NCBI RefSeq assembly: GCF_035084215.1
Contig: NC_090341.1
Span: 15,686,001-15,750,000 of the forward strand
Reading direction: 5' to 3'
Length of the DNA stretch: 64,000 bases
From: Heptranchias perlo
Lineage: Eukaryota
This document shows positions 3,429 to 54,900 of the stretch, in pieces. The notes below the pieces were generated by a model. That model worked only from the letters and a program-made list of their open reading frames with translations, had not been told where the DNA came from and ran no database searches. The position numbers were made by a program, and so were the translations under genes. Numbering within the stretch: the stretch's first letter is position 1; every line of letters begins with the position of its first letter.

Positions 3429-6400
3429 ATGTCAATCAGAAAAGGTAAGCAAGAGTCACTGCTACTAAATATATAAACAAACTTTTATAAAAAGGTGATT
3501 TGGACTCCCCCAGCCTAGTGAGTAAACACATCAAATGGTGCATTAACGTACATCTGTACAGATAGAAAATTCCCATATTCTTATGTTCACTGCCTGGTCT
3601 GTGATGAGTTAGTCATCATACTGCGAGGGTGTTATAATTGAGTTGAACACCCCTCTGCAATGGTGAGGCATTATTGGATAGGGCTCCTACTCCTGGTCAT
3701 TGCCCAGTCATCTTTGCTGGAAAGTCAGCACGTCGGAATGTCAGGGAAAGTCGGATTAAGTTTGGCTACAATTATGTCAGTTTAAAAGCCTGTTCACACT
3801 CACTATCTAGACTCACACATGAAGAATGGTCACTGATGTGAGATGCTGGGGAGCTGCTGGTACCCATGGGACTATACCTCAGCGCGAGTCCTGTAGAAGC
3901 AAAGGGGAAATTGGTGGAGGTGAAAGATGAAATAAGTGAAATTTAGATTTGTTCTTTTAATTCTTTTTTCTTTTCCAGTTCATATCCTGGTAATCCTGCT
4001 TGTTGCAATAGTGTTTTTGATAGTTGTGCACCATAATCTAATTAATGTGCATGACCTTTTGAGCAAGGAAAATTCAGGTATGTAACAACATTTAATGATA
4101 TTCTGTGTTCCAGCTCGTTCACAGCACTAAGTCTTGTATGTGTCAGCATTTCATTTATAACACTACTAGAATAACTATCTTATATCATTGGAGTTGTGCT
4201 TTTTAGAGTTCTGCCACATTGCATTCTTACCTCAAAAATATACGTGCCGTTTATGAAAACAATTTACTAACTCGGGAGGTAATGCTTTAAACTTCTTTCA
4301 TTTCATTCACTTAGTTGTATAAGCACCTAATGTAATCTGATCAGTGTAATTTGACGAGCATATCTAATAATGGTAGAAACATTCTAGAGGTGGTGATGTC
4401 TCTTCTATGATCTTGTAACCACTAAACCACCAGTATCTTCTGCGATCTTGTAACCACCACTCACTTATTTTGTAGGCTTATCATGTGAGAAAGCATTTAT
4501 TTAAACTGTCAATAGTTAAAATACCCATTAGTTAATTTTAACTGTTGTAAAATGGTAGCACATCCTGGTTTTAGATTTTAATATCTTTTACACTGTGACA
4601 AATTGTTAGTGTTCCGTTAATGAGCTTTCGTTCATATTAGATTTTTTTCAACCAATACAAGTACTGGCTGCCCAGCTAATACAACAAAGAGAAAATATGT
4701 TTGTAATGTTTGATTATTACAGGAATATTATTACTTATTTGTCAAACATGATTTGAATGATCAGATCTAACCTACATAAAGTGCTCTGTTTGATTTGATA
4801 ACTTCATTAATAGGTTATTTCATTTTAAATCAACAGAAAATTAAAACCATGAATAAGTACAATCAAATGTACACGGGATATATTATTGAATTCCTGGTTT
4901 TTTTAAAGGGATATAACTGACTGGATTCTGTTTTTTAAATATCCAATTATTGTAGGGGTCACAGTCTAGTCACTGAGAGACTAGGAGAATCCCTTTTTGA
5001 TCCCTGTCAGCTAGCTTTAAAGAAGTTTAAAGCATTACCTCCCCAGTTAGTAAATTGTCCCATCCTATTGTTCATGCTTCACTTCGTAGAATCAAGATAT
5101 GATGGAGTACAGCCAGGTGACTTTCAGAGGATTACAGCAGAGAGAACTGGTGAAGAGATTCCAATTCTAATCCCAGCTGTAGAAGAGCGACTCGGAGGTG
5201 TAATAGCAGCTATGAACAGTATATATAGAAACACCAGGTCAAATGTGGTCTTTTATATAGTTACTACGAATGACACAGTTGGTCATTTAAGGTAAACTTG
5301 TGTTTATTGTTAATCTTTGCAAAAAAATTTCAAACCTTGTTTATGTTCTGTACTTTGTTTAATATGAGACCAGAATTAAACAATTGTAATTAATCTTTCT
5401 ATTTGGTTTAAGACCCTGGCTTCAGAAGCAAGAACTGATGGGTATCAAGTATAAAATTCTTGAATTTGATCCTCATATTTTGAAAGGCAAAGTCCAAGTT
5501 GAGGGTGACTCAACAGATGTAAAGCCAGTGAGTAACTATTTTGTATGTGTGTATGTATATATTAAATATAGAATCAAATAACACAGAAGGAGGTCATTCA
5601 GCCCATAGTGCCTGTGCCGGCTCTTTGAAATTAGTCCCACTCTTTTCCTGTGGCCCTGCAAATGTTTCCTGAAAGTTACTATTGAATCTGCTTCTACCAC
5701 CCTACAGACAGTGCATTCCAGATCATAACAACTCGCTGCGTTTATTTATTAAAAAAATTCTCCTCATCTCCCCTCTGGTTCTTTTTGCTAGTTACCTTAA
5801 ATCTGTGTCCCCCAACCCTCCTGCCAGTGGAAACTATTTCTCCTTATTTACTGTAGCAAAACCCTTCATAATTTTGAACACCTCCATTAAATCTCCCCTT
5901 AAGGAGATTCTAAGGAGAACAATCCCAGCTTCTCTAGTCCCTCCACAAAACTGAAGTCCCTCATCTTCATACCATTCTAGTAAATCTCCTCTGCACCCTC
6001 TCCCAAGGCCTTGACTTCCTTCCTAAAGTGTGGTGCCCAGAACTGGACATAATATTCCATCTCAGAACTAATCAGTGATTTATAAAGGTTTAGCATAACT
6101 TCCTTGCTTTTGTACTCTTCCTCTATTTATAAAGCCCAGGATCCCGTATGCTTTTTGGACAGCCTTATTAACTTGTCCTGCCACCTTCAAAGATTTGTGT
6201 ATGTCAGTTTATCTTTGCTTTTTTAATTCACAATATCAAAATGTAGAATTGCAATTGCTAATGTTTTTAAAAAAAATTGTAAGGAAGACCAAAAATTTAC
6301 AACTTTGAAAGAGGTTACAATATTTGAATTCCATTGTGCCACTTATCTTCATGTTTGGAATTCAAATAACCTCCTTCCAAGTTGTGATGTTTTGATCTGC

Positions 6401-13913: not shown

Positions 13914-16900
13914 CCAAACATTTGTCTGAGAGAACTGAGTGCCCAGCTGCAATATCGTACGTTTCATTGAAATGTGTCAGTCACAGGTTTAAAGTGCCAA
14001 ATGAGCTTTGGTTGCAACTCACCTCCGTTTCGATGGCATGTTTCAGAAGCTATGGGAGAAGCATTCAGGAGTAGTTAAATCTGTTTCTGTTGCTGAATCC
14101 ACAAAAGGCTAAGTACCTAAAGTGTTTCAACTACCTGAATTGACCCTTTAAATATCGGCCCACCGGCTTTAAGTGGGGACGGGACTTCTGGGTTTTTGTT
14201 GTGCACGCGCATCCAAACGCACCTGGTTAAACCCGGAAGTGGGCACATTGGAGCTGGGATACAGTCCCGCTCCAAAAAGCTGCTACTTTAACCTCCCACC
14301 CGCCCCCAAAATGCCCATTCTTGGGGGTTAAAATTACCCCCCAAGTCTAAGAGCTCATACATGAAGAAAAGCCACTTCTGTGCGACACCCGAGGGTGCCC
14401 AGTGCCTGTGGAGTTGTACCCCAGCAAGGAGTACATTCCATTCAGGATGGAAAGGGACAAAAGTGGCAGAAAAGGGGGGGAAACATAAATAATGTGCTAT
14501 TATAGGTTTATTATGTATTAAATGTGTTCAGAATATATTTTGTATCACACACGATATGAGAACTATTAAGTTATTTCTCCATCTGATCTATTTTTGTTCC
14601 CCTGGCATAAGTCTTCCTTTTCTATACAAGGGAGTTTCCTTCACTACATGGGTCACTGCACAACTCATCCAAGTTCCATCATGGAGATCAGCAATCCTGG
14701 CTCATTTTTCTCTCCTCTCAGGCTTATTGTTCTGTCTCCACATCTCCTTTATCTTCTCAGACTCCACCGCTCCCATATGTACTATGAAGCATGATATTGA
14801 GTATGGTGTAGAACCGCTACTTTACCATACATGAGAAATAAAAAAGACATGGGGGAAAATATTGGATAGGGGCCGTTTTTGGGCGTAGGTAGCGTGATGT
14901 GCCATTATCCCGCGCCTAATGGCCCCTGCGCAGGCAGGACGAGATTTTCGTCAGGCCTGAGGACTCCCCTGCAATCTGCGTTGGAAATCAGCGTTGAGCA
15001 AGGATTCCATGCAATTCACACTTTCCACCAGAAGGGGGTGCTTCAATCTCTTAAAGGCAGACTGTCTATTAGAAATCTCTTAAAGGTAGTTGGTACCTGT
15101 TACTTGCTGAATATAATAGCCTGCTGTCTGAACGGAGATCAGACATCGCACACGTAAAGCACAGGTGCAGGTCCCATCCCTATGTTTACATACTGATGAT
15201 TGTAAACAATTTTACAACACCAAGTTATAGTCCAGCAATTTTATTTTAAATTCACAAGCTTTCGGAGATTTTCTCCTTCCTCAGGCAAATGTTTCAAGAT
15301 CTCCTTGAAGCCTACGCATTTATACATATTGAACAATAATACATGGTGTTTACAGACTGCCCCTGCAACTGCCCGTTGCCAAGGCAATCACCGTGTTCAG
15401 ACAGAGAGGTGTTACCTGCAGAACCTCCGAATACACATTCAACAAAAAAACAAACAGGGAAAAAAAAACAGAGAAAAAAAAACACAGAGAGAGGCAGAAA
15501 CATCCGGAAGGCAGAGAGAGCCAGCAATTGACCCATTATATTAAAAACAGATAACATTTGTTCGCTGGTGGGGTAACGTGTAGCGTGACATGAACCCAAG
15601 ATCCCGGTTGAGGCCGTCCTCATGGGTGCGGAACTTGGCTATCAATTTCTGCTCGACGATTTTGCGTTGTCGTGTGTCTCGAAGGCCGCCTTGGAGTACG
15701 CTTACCCGAAGGTCGGTGGATGAATGTCCATGACTGCTGAAGTGTTCCCCGACTGGGAGGGAACCCTCCTGTTTGGCGATTGTTGCGCGGTGTCCGTTCA
15801 TCCGTTGTCGCAGCGTCTGCATGGTCTCGCCAATGTACCATGCTCTGGGGCATCCTTTCCTGCAACGTATGAGGTAGACAACGTTGGCTGAGTCACAGGA
15901 GTATGAACCATGCACCTGGTGGGTGGTGTCATCTCGTGTGATGGTGGTATCTGTGTCGATGATCTGGCATGTCTTGCAGAGGTTACCGTGGCAGGGTTGT
16001 GTGGCGTCGTGGACGCTGTTCTCTTGAAAGCTAGGTAGTTTGCTGCGAACGATGGTCTGTTTGAGGTTGGGTGGCTGTTTAAAGGCGAGTAGTGGAGGTG
16101 TGGGGATGGCCATAGCGAGGTGTTTGTCCTCATTGATGACATGTTGAAGGCTGCGGAGAACATGGCGTAGTTTCTCCGCTCCGGGGAAGTACTGGACGAC
16201 AAAGGGTACTCTGTTGGTTGCGTCCCGTGTTAGTCTCCTGAGGAGGTCTATGCGATTTTTTGCTGTGGCCCGTCGGAACTGTCGATCGATGAGTCGAGCG
16301 TCATATCCCGTTCTTACTAGGGCGTCTTTCAGCGTCTGTAGGTGTCCATCGCGTTCCTCCTCGTCTGAGCAGACCCTGTGTATTCGCAGGGCCTGTCCAT
16401 AGGGGATGGCCTCTTTGACGTGGTTAGGGTGGAAGCTGGAAAAGTGGAGCATCGTGAGGTTGTCCGTGGGCTTGCGGTAGAGTGAGGTGCTGAGGTGCCC
16501 GTCTTTGATGGAGATTCGTGTGTCCAAGAAAGAAACTGATTCTGAGGAGTAGTCCATGGTGAGCTTGATGGTGGGATGGAACTTGTTGATGTTATCGTGT
16601 AGTCTCTTTAGTGATTCCTTGCCGTGGGTCCATAGAAAGAAAATGTCGTCGATGTATCTGGTGTATAGTGTTGGTTGGAGGTCTTGTGCAGTGAAGAAGT
16701 CCTGCTCGAACTTGTGCATGAAAATGTTGGCGTATTGGGGTGCGAATTTGGTCCCCATGGCTGTTCCGTGTGTTTGGGTAAAGAACTGGTTATCGAAGGT
16801 GAAGACATTGTGATCCAGGATGAAGCGGATGAGTTGTAGGATGGCTTCCGGAGATTGGCTGTTGTTGGTGTTGAGTATTGATGCTGTCGCAGCGATGCCG

Positions 16901-19900
16901 TCATCGTGGGGGATACTGGTGTATAGTGCCGAGACGTCCATCGTGGTGAGAAGTGTTCCTGGTTCAACTGGTCCGTGGGTACTGAGTTTTTGTAGGAAGT
17001 CTGTAGTGTCACGACAGAAGCTGGGGGTTCCCTGTACGATGGGTTTCAGGATGCCCTCGATGTATCCAGAGAGGTTCTCACACACGGTTCCGTTGCCTGA
17101 TACGATGGGACGTCCGGGTGTGTTGGCTTTGTGTATCTTTGGGAGGCAGTAGAAGTCTCCCACGCGGGGATTACGTGGGATGAGAATGCGTAGGATGCTT
17201 TGAAGGTCTGGATCGAAGGTCTTGATCAGTTTGTTGAGCTGGTGGGTGTGTTCTTTGGTCGGATCTGCGGGTAACCGTCTGTAGTGTTCCTGGTTGTCCA
17301 GTTGTCGGTATGCTTCTTTGCAATAGTCTGTTCTGTTCTGTATGACTATGGCTCCTCCTTTGTCCGCTGGTTTGATGACGATGTTGCGGTTGGTCTTGAG
17401 AGCGTTGATGGCGTTGCGTTGTGCTCGGGTGACATTCTGGACTGTCTTCTGAGTGCGGCTGATGAATCTGGCATTGACGCATTTCCTGACAGTGGTGCGC
17501 AACCTTTATTCAAACATAACTCATACATACTGATGAGTTATGTTTGAATAAAGGTTGCGCACCACTAAATCCCACATCCTCCAATCTGCCGATGAGTCTG
17601 TGAACCAAGGTTCTCTGCTGATGCACCAGAGGCCTTGGTGCAAGAGGTGGACAGAAGGAGGGACATCCTATATCCGCAGGGGGGTTGGGGGGGGGGGGAA
17701 GAGCAAGAGGCCCTCCAGACATACATCCAAAAGGCAGTGGGAGGCAGTACAGGATGAAGTCATTGCCAGGCGCACAGCATCATGAACATGGATGCAGTAC
17801 AGGAAGAAGTTCAGTGCTTTGACATGAGTGGTCAAGGTGAGTGAGGTCAAGTGGCATCTCCTACCAACTGCACCACTAGTCGCATCCACTCCTCCATGCA
17901 CTAAACCCCCCAACACCCACCTACCAACAAACTCTTTCCATCAGTACGCAACTCTTCCAATCAGATGCTTCCTCTCACCCTCACACATTACCACTGTTGC
18001 AAGCCGCAGGCCACGCACACTGGCAGCTATTCATACATGACAGGCGCATTACCCAGACACACGTCCCGCTTTCTTGCAGGAGAAGGTAGTGCATACCATT
18101 AGGCAGCAAGTGGCAGTGATATTCAGCCCCTCGAGCCTGTTCCGCCATTCAATGAGATCATGGTGGACCTGTGACCTAACTCCTTAGCCCCCTGTCCCTT
18201 AATACCCTTGGTTCACAGAAATCTATCAATCTCAGATTTAGAATTCACAGTTGAGCTAGCATCAACTGCCGTTTGCAGAAGAACTTCCCAAACTTCTCCC
18301 AACCTTTGCATGTAGAAACATTTCCTAACTTCACTCCTGCATGTCTTGGCTCTAAATGCTAGGCTATACCCCCTAGTCCTAGTATTCAAGTATAGGAGAC
18401 CTCCAAAAACAGTTACAAATGTCTCGGTATAATCCAGCCACTAACCTGTAAATCCTGCATGGTCCCTTTAAATAGAACCAGTGGGGGGTCCTCCAGGCAT
18501 TCTAAGACATGTTCAGATGGTTGGGGTTAAGACTGCGTGAGTTGAGCATTAAGACCTAAAATGGTGTGTATCACTTTAAATCAGCATTGTACACTGATTG
18601 AAGCCATTTTCTCCCTACTTTATATGATTCCAACGTTCATTATCTGCGCCTGCGCTAACTCCTATACTAAGATGGCGTCTGGCGCACGTCACGCTGGAAA
18701 CATGCGTGCACATCCAAGACGTCATCTTGGAGGTCAGAGAGGCCGTTGTTTCGGCGCTACACAGCCCAATTTAGCGTCCATGCTCTCTGTAATCTCTTCT
18801 ATATAAGATTTACATGTTTTTAGCATCCTGCTCATCACATTTCAAATGTTCAGCATGCTTCAGACATAATGCACAGTCTAATACAAATTTCTGTTTCCCA
18901 ATTACCAGATTTGTCGTTCCTCAAAATAAATATCTTCCTATTGATTGGCTTATATGCAAATTTATTAATTCTAATTGGAATTTCAATTGTAATTCAGTTT
19001 TATAAGTAAGAAAAAAAGCACATCATTTATGCAGCACCTTTTACATTGTCCCAAAACACTTCTCAGGAAATGAAGTATTCTTGTAGGCAAACACGGCAGC
19101 CAAGTTGTGCACAGCAAGGTCCTGCAAACAGCAATGAGATAAATAACCAGATGATCTGTTTTAATGGTGTTGGTTGAGGCATAAATGTTGGCCAGGACAC
19201 ATTTTCAACAAGGGAAAGGTGAACCAACCAACATGTTCAGAACATTACTTGAAAATGTTTTTGTTTGCCACTTTGTATCTCAGTAACTGAAATCCCTACA
19301 GTCCAAAATAAGGTTATTAAAATACTAATTTTGGAGAAAAATCACACTTTTCATTAACACACTTTTTTTTGTGTTTTCTAGAACACGTATTTGGGCTTCC
19401 TTGATTATAAAAAGGAAACCATTAGAAAACTTGGTATGAAGGCGGGCACGTGCTCCTTCAATCCTGGTGTTTTTGTAGCTAACCTCACAGAGTGGAAGCA
19501 ACAGAACATCACAGAACAGCTTGAAAAATGGATGGAAGTCAATATGGTGTAAGTTTACAATAGTTACATATTTTCATATGGCAAAATCAGTTATATTTTG
19601 CAGTTATAGTATCCTTCTGACCTTATTCTTGGAGAAACTGAGGTATTTCATGCTGTTATGTTGCATCAATATTAAATGAATAGGGTTTCTTGCATTCAAT
19701 GAGTAGAGGTAACTGGAAACTTTTGCAGACTTAAACATTATGATTTTCATTAATTATAGCAGTTTATAGTCTTCGAATCCTGAAGACTGTATTTTACTCA
19801 AAATATGCAGTTGCATAATTTGTATTTGAAAATTTAACTTTTAGTGCTTAACATTGTAAACCACAATTAGAGGAACTTAAAGGCTTTCCTCATTTATTAG

Positions 19901-23944: not shown

Positions 23945-24140
23945 AAATAAAAACAGAAAATGCTGGAAAAGGTCACCAAGTCAAGCAGCATCTGTGGAGA
24001 AAGAAACAAGAGTTAATGTTTCAGGTTAAAGACCTTTGTCAGAACTCTAAAAGGTTAATTGTTTTTTCCTCCACAGATGCTGTCTACCTTGCTGACCTTT
24101 TCCAGCTATTTCAGATTTCCAGCAGCTGCAGTATTTTGCT
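23945..24140. mobile_element. Short palindromic non-autonomous element with a decayed hammerhead core
   Basis: Arms CAGCATCTGTGGAGA / CTCCACAGATGCTG. Minus strand 24010-24047 reads GAGTT-CTGACAA-AGGTCTTTAACCT-GAAA-CATT-AACTC. Same family as 54041-54248. Confidence 0.7.
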
Positions 24141-32100: not shown

Positions 32101-35100
32101 GGGACCATGTGGGGCTTAATTGGGTCATGCAGAAATGGAAGCCACACTCTTTATAGGAAGAAATTGGTGACAATATCTTGCTTGATGACATGTGCTGCTA
32201 GCAGCAGAGTGCCTGGGCCCACCTTCTCTCACCCACCTTCCCACCCTCCCTCCCCAGGCATCTTGGTCGTGAGGAGGGGATTGGTCTCCAGAACCGTCTT
32301 CCTCTTCATCTTGTGTACTTGGAAGGTCCAACCCTTTTATACTGGCCAAATTATGGCAGCAAGCCACTATAATTCTGGAAACCCTTGATGGACTATACTG
32401 TAGGGTATTCCTGACCTGTCTGGGCATCAGAAATGAGACTTGTAGAGTCACCCCCTTTAACCTGCTTTCAGCCCCTGTTCTCAGATGCTGAAAAGGAATC
32501 AGCCAAGGCTGGTCTCCTGTCACATTGCCCTGGCTGAGCAGTGCAGGTATCCTGGTATTACCTGAGATTAAAGAAATCATGCCAAACCCCAGGCAGCATG
32601 CATTGACATGGATAATGAGGTGCCTGGCATCACTCCCTACTGGACATTCAGGGAATGAAATCCCTTCCTGTTGAAGTTGAGGGGGCTTTCATTGCCATAT
32701 GGGTAGCCTGCACTTGTAGGAATCTAGCCGTTAAGAAGTTGATGGCCCTCATTACGACATTCCAAAGCACGTTACTTTTGAAGTGTAGTCACTGTTGTAA
32801 TGTAGAAAAATGTGGCAGCCAATTTGCACACAGCAAGGTCCCACAAACAGCAATGAGACAATGACCAAATGATTTGTTTTAGTGATGCTGGTTGAGGGAT
32901 AAATACTGGCCAGGACACTGTTGAGAACTCCCCTGTTCTTCTTCGAAATAGTGCCGTGGTACCTTTTACGTCTACCTGAGATGGCAGATGGGGCCTCGGT
33001 TTAACGTCTCATCCGAAAGACGGCACCTCCAACAGTGCATGACTCCCTCAGTACTGCACTGGAGAGTCAGCCCAGATCTTGCGCATAAACCTCTGGAAGT
33101 GGAATGTGAACCCACAACCTTCTAACTCAGAGGCAAGAGTGCTACCCACTGAGTGGGAGGGAAACTGCAGCAGCCAGTGTTAAGTGTGGACTTTCAGGTT
33201 TCAGGAAAACCGGCAGTTTTTTTTTCAAAAAGGAAAATCTAGGCCTAAGTCGCATTTTGCTTTCACACCTCAGTTCTCTTTTTCTTTGCTGCTGTAGTAG
33301 CGCATGCTGTTGCTATGACAACAGAGAGGGGGAAAAATTAATTTAATTTTTCTAGTTAAAATTACACATTAGATCCTTTTATGATGCATTTTAAAACAAA
33401 TTTTGGCTCCAATTCTGCAAAGCAAGAACACATATAGCTCAGAGTGAGAAGATCCTGCATTTCTGTAGCTACTGTGTGAGATTCCAACAGTACCCCAGTA
33501 GTTTTCCTCCCTGCTATGGATGATTGCTAATTTATCTGTACAACGAAGATGAACTATGTTCAAGTAGTTAGGAAATTCATAAAAACGGAAAGCTCAACAT
33601 TCAATTTCAATTATTACACAAATACATGAATTACCTTTAAGTGTATTCACATTGTCTTTGGCTAGTTCTCCAGTATTAAAGCCCCTTTTTGCTTCGTCCA
33701 AAATGTTAGTGGTGATGTATGCAGGTAGCTCGTGTCTCTCTGGTGGATGTGTATGGTAACTTAGCTTAGCCCTTAATAGGAGGAATGGAAAGAAAAATAG
33801 TTATGACAATTTTCTTATATTCCGTACACAGTAATCCTAGGTATCTGTCATTCTACATTTCTTTGGCAAAGTTTTAATAAAAAATGGTTCAATCACTGAC
33901 AAAATTCCCAATTGTTTAGAAACATGTTTGACCATTATATTTGCATTCAATTATTATGCTCACTAGTGTATTAAGGTTCAGAAAGGCAGCTGAATTTTAA
34001 TTACCCAGTCCAATCGTAAAGGATCAGCTTAGCTGCTTTCTCAACATCAGGGATCCCCCCTTTCTTCAACATACTCCTTTTCTGAGCCAGCAACGTTAAA
34101 AATTCCAGTGATGTTCGAAAGTTTGGGACATTATACTGCAACATAACCTGTTGTGGGGAGAAGGTGTGTATATTTCAGCTTAACAGCTAATTTGTACATT
34201 TTAAATATAACAAATGTGTGAAAGTTCCAATTTTTGAGAGCTTGAGCTGAAGATGACAAGCCTTCCAATAACTTTCCCTGCTGTCCTCTTCATAGTGAGT
34301 GTGTCAGAGAATGTTATTACTGCTTGTAGAAATCCCAGCATTACTAAACTGGTCTGTGCTCAGTAAAGGGACATAGCAGGTTCACTGCAGTCAGCCTATG
34401 AGATTAGGTAAGTACAGACCAGGTATAAGCTGTGGGCAATCCCCATGGGTATGGCACACAGCAAGGTGCATTTACCCATTGAGACACCTATGAACTTTTA
34501 CACAAAGTTTGTAATTTCTTCTTCAGGTAGGAAGTGTGGAGGTTGGCATGGCGAGTACATAAGCATTATAGAAAACAGCCCGTAGAAACTCGGAACTTCG
34601 CATTTTACACAGTAAGTATAAACAGAAATGGGTATTTTCTTACAAACAGGCTTAAGAAGCCATAACCGAGTGAGATCAGAGTTGGATCTTTAGCAGTCAC
34701 ACATATACTTTCAGACCATTTCAGTTATCCTCATTTCTCACTTAAAAATATAATTTTGTTTGCCTATTAAAGGACATGAATTTAATTAATTTTGAAAGTT
34801 TGAAAAAATTGTACCAAAGACAACACAGAGGAATAAAGTGGACTCAGTACCTGCTGCTTATTGCAGTGCTTCAGTATAGGTTCCACTACAGCCGTAGGAT
34901 TTTTTAGTGCCTCAATGTCTACAATGTTCCTCAAGGACAAGGCAACAGCTGAATTTGATGGAGAAGCAATAATACTTGGACTGTCCAATACTTTAATCTG
35001 CTTATCAACGTGTACCTCCTGCATGGATCTGTATTCATAAGAGATTGCAGTTATTATAACAGTGCAGAAATCCTTTCTACCATGATAGTCACTAGTTCAA

Positions 35101-38100
35101 TGCCATACAAGAGAAGTTTTATTCAGAGATAATAAAGCAGGCCTTATACCACTGAGTGAAATCAGAGTTGGATCTTTAGCAGTCATGGAACATCAGGCTA
35201 TGCAAGTTGTCCTCATTTTTCACTCATACTACTTCCCTGACCTAAATGAACTTATCCATTAGTTAAATTTACAGTGTTTGAAGTTCAGGAAACAACTTAA
35301 CTAATAGCTAGTATGCACATCAGTTTATTTTTTGCTATTATAATTATATTGAAGTATCAGTATTTTAAGTGAATTGGTTACTGGGGTATATGTTAAAGCA
35401 ACCAAATAAATTAAAGCAGGATAGGTTTGAAGAGGACTACTTTGATTTTACTGTAACCCCTCCCTGTTCAGTGGCCAGGGATTAATTCATAGGATTTCCT
35501 GTAGCACCACTTCCTAACATTCCTGCAACAAAGTCACTGAAATTAAATGCATCTCTCACATGGATTATATTGATGCAAGGAGCACTTTTTGTTAAAAGTA
35601 CTCTCAACCAAAAGCTATCCTCCTCCTTTAAGGATAATACAAAGGAAAGTCCAATAAAAGTTAGTGTGCAAGTTAATGATTGACAATGTACTTCATTAGC
35701 TACTCTGTTATATAAACATGCAAATGTCCTAACTGCAGCTGTCTTACTTTGTGAGACCTCTTACTTGTCCCACGTTGCAAGCTCTCATTTTCTTCAAGCT
35801 GTTAATTATACTGCTTTTCCCTACATTTGGAAAGCCTGAAAAAGGAGAGATTGTTAGTTTACAAAAAACAAAGACAAAATATATGCTTCTAACCAGTATC
35901 AGATGAGATCAGAGTTGAATTATTTGAGTCTGCAGTTTTAGATTCAGTCTGCAGTGGGTCATCACATCCTCACCCAATTTTAAAAACTGCAGCGTACTTA
36001 GGGAAGGTTCGTTACTTTCACCACACCAACTTCTTTTGTAAAATATAAAAACCTACAAGGACAATTTGGTTTTACTAGCATGCTTAGCAGATTACATGAA
36101 TCAATTGGCATATTTTTAATTTTAATTGGATAGGCGAGGGGTGCAAAAGAATATTTTGCAACATGGGTTACTTGTAATTTTGCGAACCTGAATGCAATGG
36201 CATTAGTAAAATACTACATTGGGCCATTTTGAGGGTTTCCCTGTGAAAGTTTCAAATTCACGATTAGGTTACCATTTAATTTATAAGCAGACACGTAAAG
36301 ACAGCACTCACCTACTACACCAACTTTAATGCTTTTTACATCCTGTTTTCTGCAGTAGCTGCCAAGTAGTTTTAAAAGACTGTCACCACCAGCACAGGTA
36401 TTGCTATGTGATATCTCTACACTAGTGTTCCGTTTAGAGTTTTTTTTCTGTTCCTGTTCAAAAAAGAATTAAAAGCTATTAATAAAAATTTAAATTAGAA
36501 AATAGATCTAAAATTGATAAACCAAGTTTCTAATTATGCTGTTATTAATTACTCTTAATGTTCACTGTTTTCATACATTATTAAGCATGAGTCAGTGGCC
36601 CAACACATTAGTATGCTACTGCATTTTGCCAGGAAATGGTAGGACATGAACTGTTCCTCTATAATACCCACATGTTAAATTCCTAATCTCAGCTGGTATC
36701 TCTAGATGACCCAGGGTGCAAGTAAAGCATTTCTCCATGATGATGGTGGGACCCACAATAGTGGGAATTGGAGAAAAAGTTAGCAACACTGTTATTGTGC
36801 ACCCATTGCAGCTAGCTAAAAGGCAGCACTAGTAGCGGGTATCTAATGAACTGTGTCTTGGATTAGTATATGACACGAGAACCTACATAAAATCAGAATA
36901 AAGAAAACAAAATGTATGGGGATGCAGAAGAGGAAATACAAAATGCAATTCGGTCACAAATTCCACACAGCTACGCAATTACTTTTAAGATATTTTGCCT
37001 TCTACAACTTTAGAACACTCTTGCTGCAATATGGTTCTGGATTATCCTGCAATGAACTTTATGTAGAAGCAATGTTTTGTCAATACTGAATTTACTAAAA
37101 ATACTAAGTCTCACAATTGCTTAAAAAAGAACACCCTTGTCTAAAGAAAACTTTTTTAAAAATCAACTGCGTGAAATCAGAGTTGGATCTTACTCTTCAC
37201 AAACATCAGAGTTAAAACAACTTCATCAGGTTTCAAGGCAGTTAGTTAAGACAAGACATTTGATTGGGTTGGATCTCTTCTGGGAAACATACCATTGTTC
37301 TGTCTTGCAGTTGTGTTGATGATTTGAAAACTACAATTGGAAATTCATTTCCCAAGTATTTCAGCCATTTCTCTGCATTCTCCTTTGGCACCAAATCTAA
37401 ACAGTAAAGAACAGTGATTCCTGCTTCATAAAAGGCAAAATTCTAAATACATGTCCCCCTGGTACCCCCAAATTCTATTAAATGTTTGGTTTAATATTTT
37501 TGTTATAAAACTGTACTGCAGTTAAATTGTCCACTTACCAATCTTGTTCAATACAAGGACTAGTTGTTTCTTTCCCTCAGATTGCAAGACTGCCTGCTCC
37601 ACCTGAGGACATCTATAACCAAGAGGGTCTCTGGCATCCACCACTTCTAGAACCACATCTGAGGCATCAATCACCTAACAAAGAATAGGAAACAATCCGA
37701 ATACCAACACCTCAACTATGCAACTAATATGCACTAGTTCCCTCACGTTTCAAGATCAGTTTTGTTAATGTTCTTTCTACAATTCACTTAACAATAACAG
37801 GAAGCAATTAGAACTGACAATACTAGGTGACAGAGGATTTAAAGATTAACTACATAGTAATTGGGAGGCCTCACAGGGATAACAGTGAGTTTCTTAAAAT
37901 TGAGTTTTTCCCCAACGGACTAAAAAAAACATTTTCGACAACTCAAACGGTTTTCCTGTGGTAACCACAATTTACAGCAGTGTTAACACTGCATCTTCTG
38001 ATGTTGAAATTTTTGAAATCATCTTGTTTATTCCATTTCCTTTTCATTTATAACACAGTCATGAACAAGTGCTGAATCTGATTGTCCCCCTAGTCAATTT

Positions 38101-48957: not shown

Positions 48958-51900
48958 AAAACGACAGAGTATTGATTACACGCCTGTTGTAGCTTAGGGA
49001 GGTGGGTCTATAAATTCAGAAAATTCATTAAGCTCAGAGAGAGAATGTGCTTTCCTCATTGCAATTAAATTCATTTTTCAAAAAAGATTATTTGAATTTT
49101 GAAGCAAACCTGTCTTACCTGGTATGTTGACAGTTAGGAAGTATAAATATTTTGATTAACAGATTATGTCTTTCCTCATTTAATCCTTAAATTTATCTTT
49201 AAGCTGTAGATTTTTGTTTTACAGTTTACATGTATGTATAATGTACATAAAGACATAAGAACAGGAGTAGGCCATTCAGCCCGCCAATTTGTTCTGCCAT
49301 TCAATCAGATCAAGGCTGATCTTCACCTCAACTCCATTTATCTGCCTTTGCTCCATATTCCTTGATACCATTACCCAACAAAAATCTATCCATCCCAGTC
49401 TTGAAAATTTCAATTGACCCAGCATCCACAGCCTTTTAGGGGAACGTTCCAAATTTCCACTACTCTTTGTGTGGAAAAAGTGCTTCCTGATTCACTCGTG
49501 AATGGTCCAGCTCTAATTTTAAGGTTGTGCCCCCTTGTTCTGGATTCCCCCACCAGACAAAATAGTTTCTCTGTATTTACCCTATTGAACTCCTTTATCA
49601 TTTTAAACACCTCATTTAAATCACCTGTCTATCTTCTTATCTCAAGGACATAAATACAAGCCAAGTTTATGCAAGCTGTCCTCATAATTTAACCTTTTAA
49701 GCCCTGGTTATCATTCTGATGAATCTGCACTGTAGCCCCTCCAAGGCCAGTATGTCCTTCTAGAGGTACGGTGCCCAAAACTGAACACACTACTCCAGAT
49801 GGGGTCTGCCAAGGCTCTGTACAACTAAAGCATTTGCACATATGTAGTATAAAAATTTTTCTTTCAACAGATTGCAGTTTGCCATGAGCTGTACAATACC
49901 ATTAGAGATTACAAGGATGATCACGGAAGACTTCTGTGTGAGCTCTTCATCAGAGCACCAAAACGAAGGTAGCATTTTTGGAATCCTGATCTTGGAAGTT
50001 TTTCAGAATTCATTTAAAAAAAAACACATTCTTGAGAAAAAAGTTTGATTTAACAAGCTAATGTTTTTTATGTCTGGGTCAAAAGACACAAAATGTAAAA
50101 ATATAGCTTTGCTTACTGTTTTGTATAATCTAAAAACTGCCTGAATTAAACAGTTTTATCTCACATTGGTACATAAATGTACTGGCTTTAATACATTCGG
50201 TATAATTAATTGGGTGTGTTTAAACAACCAGTGAAATATTGCAGATCAAGGAAAGTATATTTTAATAGGAATGACCTGTATACTTGAAAAATATCAGATT
50301 CTGTATTCTTTCTTAATTGAGCATCATTGATGACAGTAATTCTCTTTTTTTCTCCTTTCCCAATACTCAACACCATTCTGCAACCAAGCAAGAAGGGAGA
50401 TAACATAGTCAAAGGCTTCTGCCATTGCCACCCTGCAGCCAGGCACAAAAAGGTGGTTCACATCGATTCAGATCAGGGTCTCACAACATGGGAAACTGTA
50501 GATATGATCCCATTGTGGGGAGCACCACGTTGTTACTTTAACCCATTATGAGATATTGGGACTATTTCTACTGGAGCAGAGAGGGCCAAGAGGAGATTTA
50601 ATTGGCGTTTTAAAAATTTATGAAGAGCTTTAATAGGGTGAATGGGGAAACATGAGGGCATCATACACTTAAAATTGTCACTGAGAGTGTGAGGAGAGAG
50701 GCTAGGAGAAATTCCTTTAAACAGAGCTGTAGGAGCATGAAATACTTTGCCACAAAGTAGTTGGGGCAGAGGCCATTGCATCTTTGAAGGGAAAAGTGAA
50801 AAAATATTTGAAGCAGAGAAAGATATAGACATATAGCTATGGGGAGTGAGCAAGGCAGTGGGGTTAGTTTTGAGTTGCTCTAAAGCCATTACAGACATGA
50901 AGAATTGAATGGCCTCCTTCTGTGCTATAAACTTCTATGTTTCTATATCACCAAGGCATCAAAAACCAGCAGTTCTAAAATGTTACTATTATTTGCCTTT
51001 TAATATTAGGTTGTTTAAAAAGGGAGAAAGAGATAGACCAAGTAATTATAGGCCAGTCAGTCTGACCACGGTGGTGGGCAAATTATTGGATTCGATTCTG
51101 AGACAGCATTTAGAAAGGCACGGGTTAATCAAGCACAGTCAGCATGGATTTGTTAAGATGTGGAGATGCCGGTGATGGACTGGGGTTGACAATTGTAAAC
51201 AATTTTACAACACCAAGTTATAGTCCAGCAATTTTATTTTAAATTCACAAGCTTTCGGAGGCTTCCTCCTTCGTCAGGTGAATGATTTTCACATCGTTCA
51301 CCTGACGAAGGAGGAAGCCTCCGAAAGCTTGTGAATTTAAAATAAAATTGCTGGACTATAACTTGGTGTTGTAAAATTGTTTACAATTGGATTTGTTAAG
51401 GGAAGGTTGTGTCTGACTAACTTGATTGAATTTTTTGAGCAGGTAACAAGGAGGGTCGATGAGGGTAATGCGTTTGACGTAGTGTACATGGATTTTAGCA
51501 AGGCTTTTGACAAGGTCCCACATGGCAGACTGGTCAAAAAAGTAAAAGCCCATGGGATCCAAGGGAAAGTGGCTAGTTGGATCCAAAATTGGCTCAGTGG
51601 CAAGAAGCAAAGGGTAATGGTTGACGGGTGTTTTTGCGACTGGAAGGCTGTTTCCATTGGGGTCCCGCAAGGCTCAGTACTAGGTCCCTTGCTTTTCGTG
51701 GTATATATTAATGATCTGGACTTGAATCTGGGGGGCTTGATCAAGAAGTTTGCAGATGATACAAAAATTGGCCCTGTGGTTGATAGTGAGGAGGAAAGCC
51801 ATAGACTGCAGGAATATATCAATGGACTGGTCAGGAGGACAGAAAAGTGGCAAATGGAATTCAACCCAGAAAAGTGTGAGGTAATGCATTTGGGGAGGGT

Positions 51901-54900
51901 AAATAAGGCAAGGGAGTACACAATAAATGGGAGGATACTGAGAGGTGTAGAGGAACAAAGGGAGTGCATGTCCACAGATCCCTGAAGGTAGCAGGACAAG
52001 TAGATAAGGCAGTTAAAAAGGCATACGGGATACTTTCCTTTATTTGCCGAGGCATAGAATATAAGAGCAGGGAGGTTATGCTATAATTGTATAAAACATT
52101 GGTTGGGCCACAGCTTGAGTACTGCGTACAGTTCTGGTCACCACATTACAGGAAAGATGTGATTGCACTAGAGAGGATACAGAGGAGATTTACAAGGATG
52201 TTGCCAGGGTTGGAGAATTTTAGCTATGAGAAAAGATTGGATAGGCTGGGGTTGTTTTCTTTAGAACAAAGGAGGCTGATTTAATTGAGGTATATCAAAT
52301 TATGACAGGACCAGATAGAGTGGATAGGGAGGACCTATTTCCCTTAGCAGAGGGGTCAGTGACCGGGGGCATGGATTTTAAGTAATTGGTAGAAGGATTG
52401 GAGGGGAACTGAGGAGAAATATTTTCACCCAGAGGGTGTTGGGGGTTTGGAACTCACTGCCTAAAAGGGTGGTAGAGGCAGAAACCCTCAACTCATTTAA
52501 AAAGTACTTGGATGTGCACTTGAAGTGCCGTAACCTACAGGGCTACAGACCAATTGCTGGAAAGTGGAATTAAGCTGGATCGTTCTTTTTCGGCCGGAAC
52601 TGGCACGATGGGCCGAATGGCCTCCTTCTGTGCCGTAACATTCTGTGATTCTATGAACAAGTTGCTTGCCCAGAGACTGGATACCATAAATAATAATGTT
52701 TGTGGATTTCTTTCAGTACAGCTGAAAAAACATGGTTTTCTCAAGGTCAACTATATTAAAGGAATGGTTCTCTGCAAAAAAATTGCTCACTGTAGTGTCA
52801 TGGAACCACCAGTTAATTGTAGATTTTGTTATTTTAGCAGGAAGACTGCAGTGTGCAGCTTTGCAACTAGTGCTGCAATTCAGATGACTGAATACTTTGT
52901 GAATGCAATTCAAATGTTATTTTTTAAAGCTTGAACTTAAGCAGAAAATTTGCTAATTACTGTAAAATTGTAATATTGCAATTCAAAAATGAAGTGAACT
53001 CAACAATTAGGTGGATGTAAAGATATTAATTATTCCCAAAAGCAACTGTATGAAGGTTGAGTCTTCACTGTCATTGAGCAATGTGTTTCACTGGCCCACT
53101 TCAGCCAACATGCTAAATTTACCCTGTGTATTGTATCATTTAATCTTCTGAAAAGTATATGAAATAAACATTAAACAGTGTTTAATACAGTAATGATAAG
53201 TCTAGATCAAGTCAATAATCACATAAACTGCACTGAGAAAAGGTTTTTGACCAATAATTGAGATCTTTTGAACGAGTGAAGGGGACCCATTAATGCATTT
53301 CTACCAATACAATGTTCCATTTCTTATGTTAACACCTTGTGTAAAAGATGGTCAGAAACCTTTTTAAAGTTCTAAAAAGATTTTTTTTTATTGAATTTAA
53401 ATATACATACTAATACAAAGTTCCAATGATGATGCATATTCTGCAATATACTTGGTTTTGTGAGCTGACTTAGTCACACTGTGCCTTGAGTAGTGAAGAG
53501 CATGGTCAGGACTGTGAATTCTATTTTCATGAATTTGCACAAGTGTGTAATAATATTACTGAGAATTAAAAGTATAAAATTAATATGCTATATTGGTTAC
53601 TACTAGTTTTGAACTAAAAGTCATACCAGTTATGGGCATTTGAAGAGTGTACATAATTTTTTAAGCATATCTTGCAATGTGCTGTAAAATAGGAACCAAC
53701 CAGATTACTATGACGTGGTCTCCCATCCCATTGATCTTTTGAAGATCCAGCAGAAATTGAAGATGGAGGAATACGATGATGTCGATCAGTTAACTTCTGA
53801 TTTTCAGCTTATGGTCAATAATGCAAAGGCCTACTATAAGGTAATGAGCTTTGAGACTAAACTGGTTTGTATATACGTCTTTTGCCAAGCTTTTGCAATG
53901 CCTTCAAATGCCTCCTTCATTGGCTTGGTGTCCATTTATTTTTGTTTATGCCTCTGTGAAGCATCTCAGGACATTTTTCTACATTAAAGGTGATGTATAA
54001 ATGAAAGTTGTTGTTTTAAATGAGTGGTATATTATTTTATAATAAAAACAGAAAATTTTGGAGATATGCAGCAGATCCATCAGCATCTGAAAAGAGGACA
54101 GATTCTTGTTTGTGGTGTAGACCCTCCGTCAGAACGTTGAGCAGGGTCTTCAGCCAAAATCTCAATCTACCTTTTTCTCTTTTCAGTCGTTGGAATCCCT
54201 AGTATTTTCTGTTTTCATTTCAAGTTTCCAGCGTTTGAAGTTTATTCTCTATCTATAGAATTTTATCACTGAGCAATTTACCTATCATTTTGATTTATTA
54301 CATGGTTAAAATTCTTTTTTTTAAAGTTGCCACCTCTTTCATAGAATTTTTAAAATCTAAAATTTTTGTTACGTGAAATACAATTAAAACATGTGAATGT
54401 TCTGTATGCTATCGCTGTTAAAAAGGACACGTCTGAAAATAAAACAAATGATGGTTGGATTTCGCAATGAGCTGAGGTGGAATGTTAGGTACAGATAGCT
54501 TCAAAAATATATTTTTAATCATATTTGGCCCTGGAGATGAGGACGCTGTAAACATGCTTAGAAGGCTGAGTTTCATGATCTTATATCACTGTATAACTAG
54601 AAACATGACTTCTGGTATATTTCTGGTCAATTCAACTTCCATGCTATTTGATGAATGCTTACGAAGTGGAACACATGTACATGGTTAAGATACTAGCTTA
54701 ATATCTATGTTATGATACAAAAATAACTTTTGGTTGAGACGGTTTAACTCATATGAATTAGTGTTTGTTGATTTGACTGCACGCACCAATTACACATGTT
54801 TATGCAAATTATGATTAGAAAATATATAACTTATAGTGTTTGTGTGTTTAAAGCAAATTTTTTGATCACTTACAGGAAGATTCAGTTGAGTGCAAAGCTG

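What the first reader, a model, noticed from the sequence alone, without database searches (positions are those of the whole stretch)
51145..51400. Palindromic mini-retroelement with back-to-back hammerhead ribozymes, one per strand
A 230-bp insert with a 13-bp TSD splits a CR1 RT frame. It consists only of two inverted 97-bp copies of a Penelope 3' end plus a 32-nt tail. Each arm holds a complete minimal hammerhead (51243-51283 on -, 51296-51336 on +), so a transcript from either strand contains a ribozyme and its antisense. Its 3' end (GTTTACAA) and TSD length match the full element at 15.2 kb. Hammerheads and inverted terminal repeats are known in Penelope-like elements. The inference is a non-coding, ribozyme-bearing hairpin unit mobilised in trans, with the design recurring in an older family (24 and 54 kb). 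In PBRM1 pre-mRNA the ~97-bp duplex would compete with the ribozyme fold and could be an ADAR or Dicer substrate.
Basis: partly seen in the sequence, partly recalled or inferred. Interest (0 to 1): 0.8.

Follow-up and report, generated by a model that had tools for sequence, protein, structure and literature searches.

The report
Penelope retrotransposon twin-primed mini-palindrome
This 230-base mirror-image insertion is one of over 1,500 small by-products of an active Penelope-like retrotransposon, apparently built anew at each landing from two short DNA copies of the start of its RNA rather than copied as a self-contained ribozyme element, and the set of copies hints at how this poorly understood class of jumping gene inserts.

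Summary
The anatomy is confirmed: 230 bp, 13-bp TSD, split CR1 RT frame, 97-bp arms, 32-nt tail, a minimal hammerhead per arm, in a PBRM1 intron. The genome holds 1,515 such palindromes; 50 unselected ones show 43 different centres. The TTTCAC centre occurs in both polarities relative to the tail (61 versus 49 loci), so it is not inherited. The arms are the first ~100-140 nt of a Penelope-like transcript: they stop at a TATA/Inr start, and the tail ends at the ATG of a 902-aa RT-endonuclease ORF. Best reading: both target strands prime cDNA at the element's two internal start sites, both run to the RNA 5' end, and they are joined head to head. In read-through RNA the antisense arm always comes first, so the ribozyme is predicted masked. 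Head-to-head pLTRs with a tail and opposite-strand hammerheads are published, and this scan met such palindromes in two other genomes. Not found in print: 33 palindromes with arms from different subfamilies (control 2), suggesting two RNAs in some insertions.

The parts
51145..51157 (.). Left target-site duplication (13 bp)
51158..51189 (-). Penelope 'tail': the 32 nt between RT start site 1 and the ORF start codon of the source element
   Evidence: tail is followed by the ATG of a 902-aa ORF in source copies; tail arms end -2..+14 of the ATG
51190..51286 (-). Left arm; with the tail it is the cDNA started at the tail end; it stops 8 nt short of the inferred +1
   Evidence: same join class as L008
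51243..51283 (-). Minimal type I hammerhead, core from 51277, predicted cut after 51249
   Evidence: motif compared by eye with PMC4209133
51285..51292 (+). Junction: 2-nt AT microhomology (51285-51286) plus TTTCAC, which is the first bases of the transcript leader and not a spacer
   Evidence: source leader in L168; both polarities genome-wide
51285..51387 (+). Right arm: transcript +1 to RT start site 1 (GTTTACAA at 51379-51386)
   Evidence: 51287-51388 is 102/102 identical to the pLTR in L168; same end as the 15.2-kb copy
51296..51336 (+). Minimal type I hammerhead, core from 51302, palindromic AAGCTT helix III without loop, predicted cut after 51330
51388..51400 (.). Right target-site duplication (13 bp)
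51002..51970 (+). Older LINE RT frame (CR1-like; label recalled) interrupted by the insert
53697..53840 (+). PBRM1 exon downstream of the host intron (upstream exon near 49886-49970)
15200..17492 (-). 5'-truncated autonomous-type Penelope-like copy of a sister subfamily; 13-bp TSD at 15187-15199 and 17524-17536
   Evidence: 2284 of 2294 columns identical to the tandem unit in L110, starts at codon 253 of 902
23950..24118 (.). Older, decayed palindrome of another family; one degenerate hammerhead on the - strand
54040..54250 (.). More decayed relative of the 24-kb palindrome; no convincing hammerhead

Best explanation
It is a promoter-less by-product of an active endonuclease-bearing Penelope-like element (PLE). 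The element's pLTR carries TATA and an initiator; an RNA started there has the hammerhead at its 5' end, RT start site 1 about 100 nt in, and the tail end/ATG about 139 nt in. The RT-endonuclease cuts both target strands 12-13 nt apart; one 3' end primes cDNA at the tail end, the other at site 1 (twin priming). Both cDNAs run over the uncut hammerhead to the RNA 5' end and are joined head to head by microhomology or short inserts. Each insertion therefore rebuilds the palindrome, with the tail on one arm only. Shown: anatomy, copy numbers, variable and two-polarity centres, arm ends at the Inr-like site and at the ATG, intact ORFs behind the same leader. Inferred: that the Inr-like site is the real start, the enzymology, the repair route. 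In read-through RNA the ribozyme is predicted masked.
For: 1,515 exact palindromic centres, control 0; 43 distinct centres in 50 unselected loci. TTTCAC centre 61 in the window's polarity, 49 in the opposite one (binomial p 0.29). Tail arm longer in 15, short arm longer in 15, equal in 6 of 36 main-subfamily loci; 20 microhomology joins, 13 inserts, 3 blunt. 65 of 69 main-type arms end at or inside the Inr A, 21 at 0/-1; TATA to Inr 29 nt. Tail followed by ATG at 816 sites, 902-aa ORF in 3,083-bp tandem units; same leader in front of ORFs of 902 and 893 aa (L170, L169). Best flanking direct repeat 12-13 nt in 40 of 50. In vitro, a PLE protein cleaves and extends both strands, starts at two internal sites that bound the tail, and uses uncleaved RNA (PMC11167929).
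Against: No RNA data for the start site. One of the 69 arms runs 7 nt past +1 and several rows run further into the promoter, so the 5' end is not absolute. The D. virilis element has a TATA-less internal promoter (PMC2377424). The two polarity patterns differ in length, and the 50-locus sample is the first half of one contig. Arms are usually identical at subfamily sites (328 symmetric vs 33 mixed), which single-cDNA fold-back also predicts. Whether the template was the mRNA in cis or a defective copy's RNA in trans is not resolved.
Confidence: 0.8

Rival explanations
1. One reading: a non-coding hairpin master is transcribed whole and retrotransposed in trans as a unit.
For: All 40 scored hits of the DNA search cover nearly the whole query at 98-100% and 29 of the 30 fetched share the centre; 61 exact copies in the window's polarity. 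pLTRs can mobilise other sequence in trans (PMC3846280).
Against: Those hits were ranked by similarity to the query. Unselected loci have 43 centres in 50; the same centre occurs 49 times with the tail on the other side; the centre also recurs on different arm subfamilies; the insert lacks the TATA box.
Confidence: 0.07
2. One cDNA folds back on itself (self-priming, possibly on an antisense template as proposed for rotifer PLEs) and is copied into the second arm.
For: Explains arm identity (328 symmetric loci) and small palindromes at junctions; proposed in PMC3846280.
Against: Fold-back of the tail-primed cDNA gives only the GTGAAA polarity; the window's polarity needs a second cDNA, and it is at least as common (61 vs 49). 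Either arm is the longer equally often. Zero-spacer joins exist (L039, L044). Mixed-subfamily arms exist.
Confidence: 0.08
3. Independent abortive 5'-truncated, inverted copies of full-length elements with random inversion points.
For: Centres vary; longer inverted and truncated copies exist; 293 shorter palindromes invert near helix III.
Against: Inner ends stop sharply at the Inr-like site: 65 of 69 at or inside it; note that the search pattern itself allowed at most 30 nt of centre.
Confidence: 0.03
4. A single-arm insertion was turned into a palindrome afterwards by DNA repair or gene conversion.
For: Private variants shared by both arms (L046, L161, L163) hint at arm-to-arm conversion.
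Against: One TSD brackets both arms in most loci; the tail is on one arm only; the short arm ends at the same site as ORF-bearing copies.
Confidence: 0.02

Closest known systems
EN+ Penelope-like element insertions with head-to-head inverted pLTR and 30-40-nt tail (PMC3846280; PMC8557442)
   Same: Inverted pLTR pair, tail on one side only, TSD, TATA plus Inr-like motif in the pLTR, tail at the ORF start.
   Different: Here the ORF and the promoter are absent: only transcript +1 to the RT start sites is present, in 1,515 or more copies. The passages read explain the inversion by self-priming on an antisense template or leave it undefined.
Minimal hammerheads of metazoan PLEs (PMC4209133)
   Same: Extra base between positions 9 and 10.1, G10.1-C11.1, palindromic helix III without loop; that paper notes dual motifs 100-700 bp apart on opposite strands.
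   Different: Cores here are about 25 nt apart, back to back; predicted cut at CUU; no activity test.
Poseidon element of Anolis in vitro (PMC11167929)
   Same: Two internal RT start sites bounding the tail, both strands cut and extended, uncleaved RNA as substrate, predicted protein dimer.
   Different: There the start sites lie 111-118 nt inside the ORF; here just before the ATG. The parts read do not treat head-to-head products or two-RNA templating.
Non-LTR retrozymes (bioRxiv 10.64898/2026.07.22.740005)
   Same: Non-coding, hammerhead-bearing, derived from PLE pLTRs.
   Different: Retrozymes are head-to-tail tandem units that can form active dimers and circles; this is head-to-head, one sense ribozyme per transcript.
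L1 twin priming (recalled, not read)
   Same: Both target strands prime on the RNA; microhomology join; one TSD.
   Different: L1 gives an inversion without duplication; here both cDNAs copy the same 5' segment, giving a palindrome.

Membership tests
EN+ Penelope-like element (source) | Single ORF with RT and C-terminal GIY-YIG endonuclease | tested here: met
   902-aa ORF, RVT_1 E 3.3e-10; GIY-YIG-like motifs VVY...YIGET...R...H seen by pattern; Pfam did not report GIY-YIG at E 0.001
EN+ Penelope-like element (source) | Tandem/partial tandem units forming pLTRs | tested here: met
   3,083- and 3,081-bp tandem units in L110-L112
EN+ Penelope-like element (insertion) | Inverted pLTR, 30-40-nt tail on one end, TSD | tested here: met
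Named PLE clade (Penelope/Poseidon, Neptune, Nematis) | RT phylogeny and linker motif | not tested
   no reference sequences fetched, no tree built
Minimal PLE hammerhead | Conserved core, helix II, extra base after A9, palindromic loopless helix III | tested here: met
   against PMC4209133; not detected by Rfam at gathering score
Minimal PLE hammerhead | Self-cleavage as a dimer | not testable with these tools
   needs a cleavage assay; computed fold is masked in both full transcripts
Non-LTR retrozyme | Head-to-tail tandem units each with a type I hammerhead | tested here: not met
   head-to-head, single unit
Non-autonomous element/SINE replicating as a unit | Fixed internal structure inherited from a master | tested here: not met
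   43 centres in 50 loci; 61 vs 49 polarities
Non-autonomous element/SINE replicating as a unit | Own promoter | tested here: inconclusive
   the upstream TATA box of the source pLTR is missing; an internal promoter was not tested

The most novel reading that the evidence does not exclude
The PLE insertion complex routinely carries two RNA molecules, one per protein subunit and possibly held together by the palindromic helix III of the minimal hammerhead, each priming one target strand; the hammerhead would act as a dimer linkage, as in retroviral genomes, rather than as a nuclease at this step. Evidence: 33 palindromes differ between arms at a subfamily site (control site 2 loci, no A>G); 6 of them carry one subfamily marker in one arm and another in the other arm, a class that single mutation cannot give, and 5 of the 6 sit inside one TSD. 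That some insertions used two templates I put at about 0.6; the probability given here is for the general two-RNA, hammerhead-linked form.
Probability: 0.2. Interest if true: 0.75.

Novelty: new member of a known kind. Interest (0 to 1): 0.42.

Why it matters
The single insert is ordinary: one of more than 1,500. The population is useful because the origin of PLE inverted repeats and tails is called undefined in the passages read (PMC8557442). These copies give a genome-scale, testable model (twin priming at the two known internal start sites, stop at the transcription start) that argues against self-priming on an antisense template, and suggest why tandem copies are needed for full-length transposition: an RNA started at its own pLTR meets the RT start sites after about 100-140 nt. 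Mixed-subfamily arms would give the dimer-only hammerhead a candidate role. For the host, each copy is a near-perfect ~100-bp RNA duplex when read through.

Tried and rejected
Similarity-ranked DNA search first looked like proof of unit replication; rejected as ascertainment bias after the unselected pattern search. Cap-copied G at the junction: rows read by eye; every G before the leader can be explained by microhomology with the other arm and C is common, so inconclusive. Hammerhead-cut RNA as template: 293 palindromes invert near helix III; by eye 12 of the first 50 are exact AAGCTT joins and 6 of 50 have one arm ending at the predicted cut, no clear peak against the neighbouring position, so inconclusive. 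Cross-leader chimeras: only 3, one nested (L165 = L136), one complex, one without a TSD; palindromes of the other leader were not counted. Insertion polymorphism, editing, expression: no RNA holder listed; contigs laid were swamped by paralogous repeats, so the joint that skips the insert cannot be assigned to this locus. Rfam gave only two SNORD19 hits. A look-up of earlier findings by sequence found nothing. Two loci (L130, L131) were not parsed; 14 of 50 loci (13 other subfamilies, 1 ambiguous tail) were left out of the join tally.

Full report
Observation. The insert is 51158-51387 (230 bp) between identical 13-mers at 51145-51157 and 51388-51400. Arms 51190-51286 and 51293-51389 are 97 nt with one mismatch, a C-to-T at 51283; the RNA folds at -178.1 kcal/mol, z -26.5. 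The flanks read as one RT frame (RVT_1; 'CR1' is my recalled label). The host is PBRM1 on the + strand: the exon at 53697-53840 matches polybromo-1 residues 81-128 and an upstream exon lies near 49.9 kb. Each arm has CUGACGA, one extra A, a 5-bp helix II, GAAA and a loopless palindromic helix III, the minimal PLE hammerhead of PMC4209133; Rfam does not call it. The 15.2-kb copy has the same 3' end and a 13-bp TSD but is 5'-truncated at codon 253 of 902 and belongs to a sister subfamily. The 24-kb palindrome keeps one decayed hammerhead, the 54-kb one none that convinces.

Copies. A DNA search gave 693 candidates; the 40 scored all match nearly end to end at 98-100% and 29 of 30 fetched share the centre. 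That sample is ranked by likeness to the query. An exact pattern that leaves the centre free (0-30 nt) finds 1,515 palindromes, control 0. The first 50 of these (contig C1, about 0-99 Mb) have 43 distinct centres, 41 ignoring polarity; the TTTCAC centre is 4 of 50, and 3 of those 4 have the tail on the other side. Genome-wide that centre occurs 61 times in the window's polarity and 49 times in the opposite one (the second pattern is 6 letters longer; p 0.29 against 1:1). An inherited centre would keep its polarity. In 36 main-subfamily loci the tail arm reaches further inward in 15, the short arm in 15, neither in 6; joins are microhomology in 20, inserts in 13, blunt in 3 (a few rows are distorted by point mutations; 14 loci left out).

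What the arms are. The tail runs into an ATG at 816 exact sites. Behind it lies a 902-aa RT plus GIY-YIG-like ORF in tandem units of about 3,083 bp. Copies with this insert's leader (L086, L089, L090, L108) have a TATA box 29 nt upstream of an initiator-like TCATTTT, whose A is the first base of the leader; two have open ORFs of 902 and 893 aa (L170, L169). The window's short arm is 102 of 102 identical to such a pLTR. Of 69 main-type arms, 65 end at or inside that A, 21 at 0 or -1; a few rows run further upstream. Tail arms end between -2 and +14 of the ATG and most short arms within a few bases of GTTTACAA. The best flanking direct repeat is 12-13 nt in 40 of 50 loci. So the 'centre' is the first bases of the transcript, joined by a 2-nt AT overlap.

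Mechanism. PMC11167929 shows in vitro that a PLE protein cuts and extends both target strands, starts reverse transcription at two internal sites that bound the tail, and uses uncleaved RNA. With that, the simplest route is twin priming: one strand primes at the tail end, the other at site 1, both cDNAs run to the RNA 5' end about 100-140 nt away, and their ends are joined. This explains the one-sided tail, the stop at the start site, the variable joins, the equal polarities and the single TSD. Fold-back of a tail-primed cDNA gives only one polarity. I infer that RNAs started at their own pLTR yield these palindromes, while full-length copies need read-through from an upstream tandem copy. The start site, the repair route and cis versus trans templating are inferred or open.

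One RNA or two. At the subfamily site equivalent to 51312, 328 loci have G in both arms and 33 differ between arms; any change at the neighbouring site 51309 in one arm is seen at 2 loci, neither A>G. Of the 33, 6 have G plus the common base at 51315 in one arm and A plus the second subfamily's T in the other; 1 has both markers in one arm; none has T in both arms, the class that a new A>G mutation on that subfamily would give. Five of the 6 lie in one TSD. Against a general rule: random pairing would give about 530 mixed loci, so 33 is about 6% (rough, the totals come from different patterns); L161 and L163 share a rare variant in both arms, pointing to template switching or conversion; ectopic gene conversion is not excluded; only 3 cross-leader chimeras exist; one control site only.

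Ribozyme. On either strand the antisense arm is made first; computed probability of helix II is 0.0 at every length tested in both transcripts and 0.99 in an isolated arm (equilibrium folding, not kinetics). PMC4209133 found no cleavage for a single minimal motif. All 1,515 palindromes span the predicted cut on both arms, so their templates were uncut; the 293 shorter ones show no clear peak at the cut (first 50 read by eye). A 97-bp intronic duplex is a plausible ADAR substrate from general knowledge; could not test it.

Known work. Head-to-head inverted pLTRs with a one-sided tail, TSD and TATA/Inr motifs are in PMC3846280, which proposes self-priming on an antisense template; PMC8557442 calls the cause undefined; PMC4209133 notes paired minimal hammerheads on opposite strands. 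Seen: PMC11167929 parts 1-2 of 4; PMC4209133 parts 1-2 of 4; PMC3846280 passages and Discussion; PMC8557442 passages; PMC2377424 passages; bioRxiv 10.64898/2026.07.22.740005 part 1 of 5 and passages. L1 twin priming and Lünse et al. 2017 are recalled, not read. Eight searches (listings only) showed no paper on twin-primed PLE mini-palindromes or two-RNA templating; the library lacks most subscription papers and Repbase, and no supplements were read (Fig. S2 of PMC11167929 may bear on this). Two earlier notes of this scan report such palindromes in other genomes with the mirror half built anew; I had reached that reading before the look-up and tested it here independently.

Verdict. Real, young and ordinary as an object; a new member of a known kind of PLE insertion and not a unit-replicating ribozyme element. 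The copy population gives a concrete model for an open step of PLE transposition and a lead on two-RNA templating. Interest 0.42.

Noticed in passing
L113 (G000:C2:21273027-21276288): Head-to-tail array of a 404-bp internally deleted PLE unit with TATA, hammerhead, tail and ORF start; 10 hammerheads in tandem, a retrozyme-like non-autonomous array that could form active dimers.
   Followed up: partly
window 17493-17553: The 5' junction of the 15.2-kb PLE holds an inverted copy of about 30 nt of the flank beyond the TSD, a templated insertion made during integration.
   Followed up: partly
L110-L112: Tandem full-length PLE units with open 902-aa ORFs; the family looks recently active, and subfamilies differ mainly in promoter/leader and helix II.
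   Followed up: partly
L065, L107 and window 15.2 kb: Flanks look alike by eye, suggesting repeated PLE insertion into the same host repeat at nearly the same position; L043 and L140 share a 13-bp TSD sequence.
   Followed up: no
window 34663-34739 and 35149-35221 (-): Two SNORD19 snoRNAs (Rfam); a third similar stretch near 37166-37200. Host gene probably GNL3, head to head with PBRM1 (recalled).
   Followed up: no
G000:C4:58495618 and C4:58668892 (L029, L028): Two palindromes with identical flanks, so a segmental duplication or assembly duplicate; copy counts include a few such pairs.
   Followed up: no
window 4259-4298 / 5019-5058: 40-nt inverted repeats 720 nt apart, 98% complementary; possibly a non-autonomous DNA transposon.
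   Followed up: no
L082/L083, L114: Head-to-head PLE insertions in which both arms run on into the ORF, so priming can also start far downstream of the tail.
   Followed up: no
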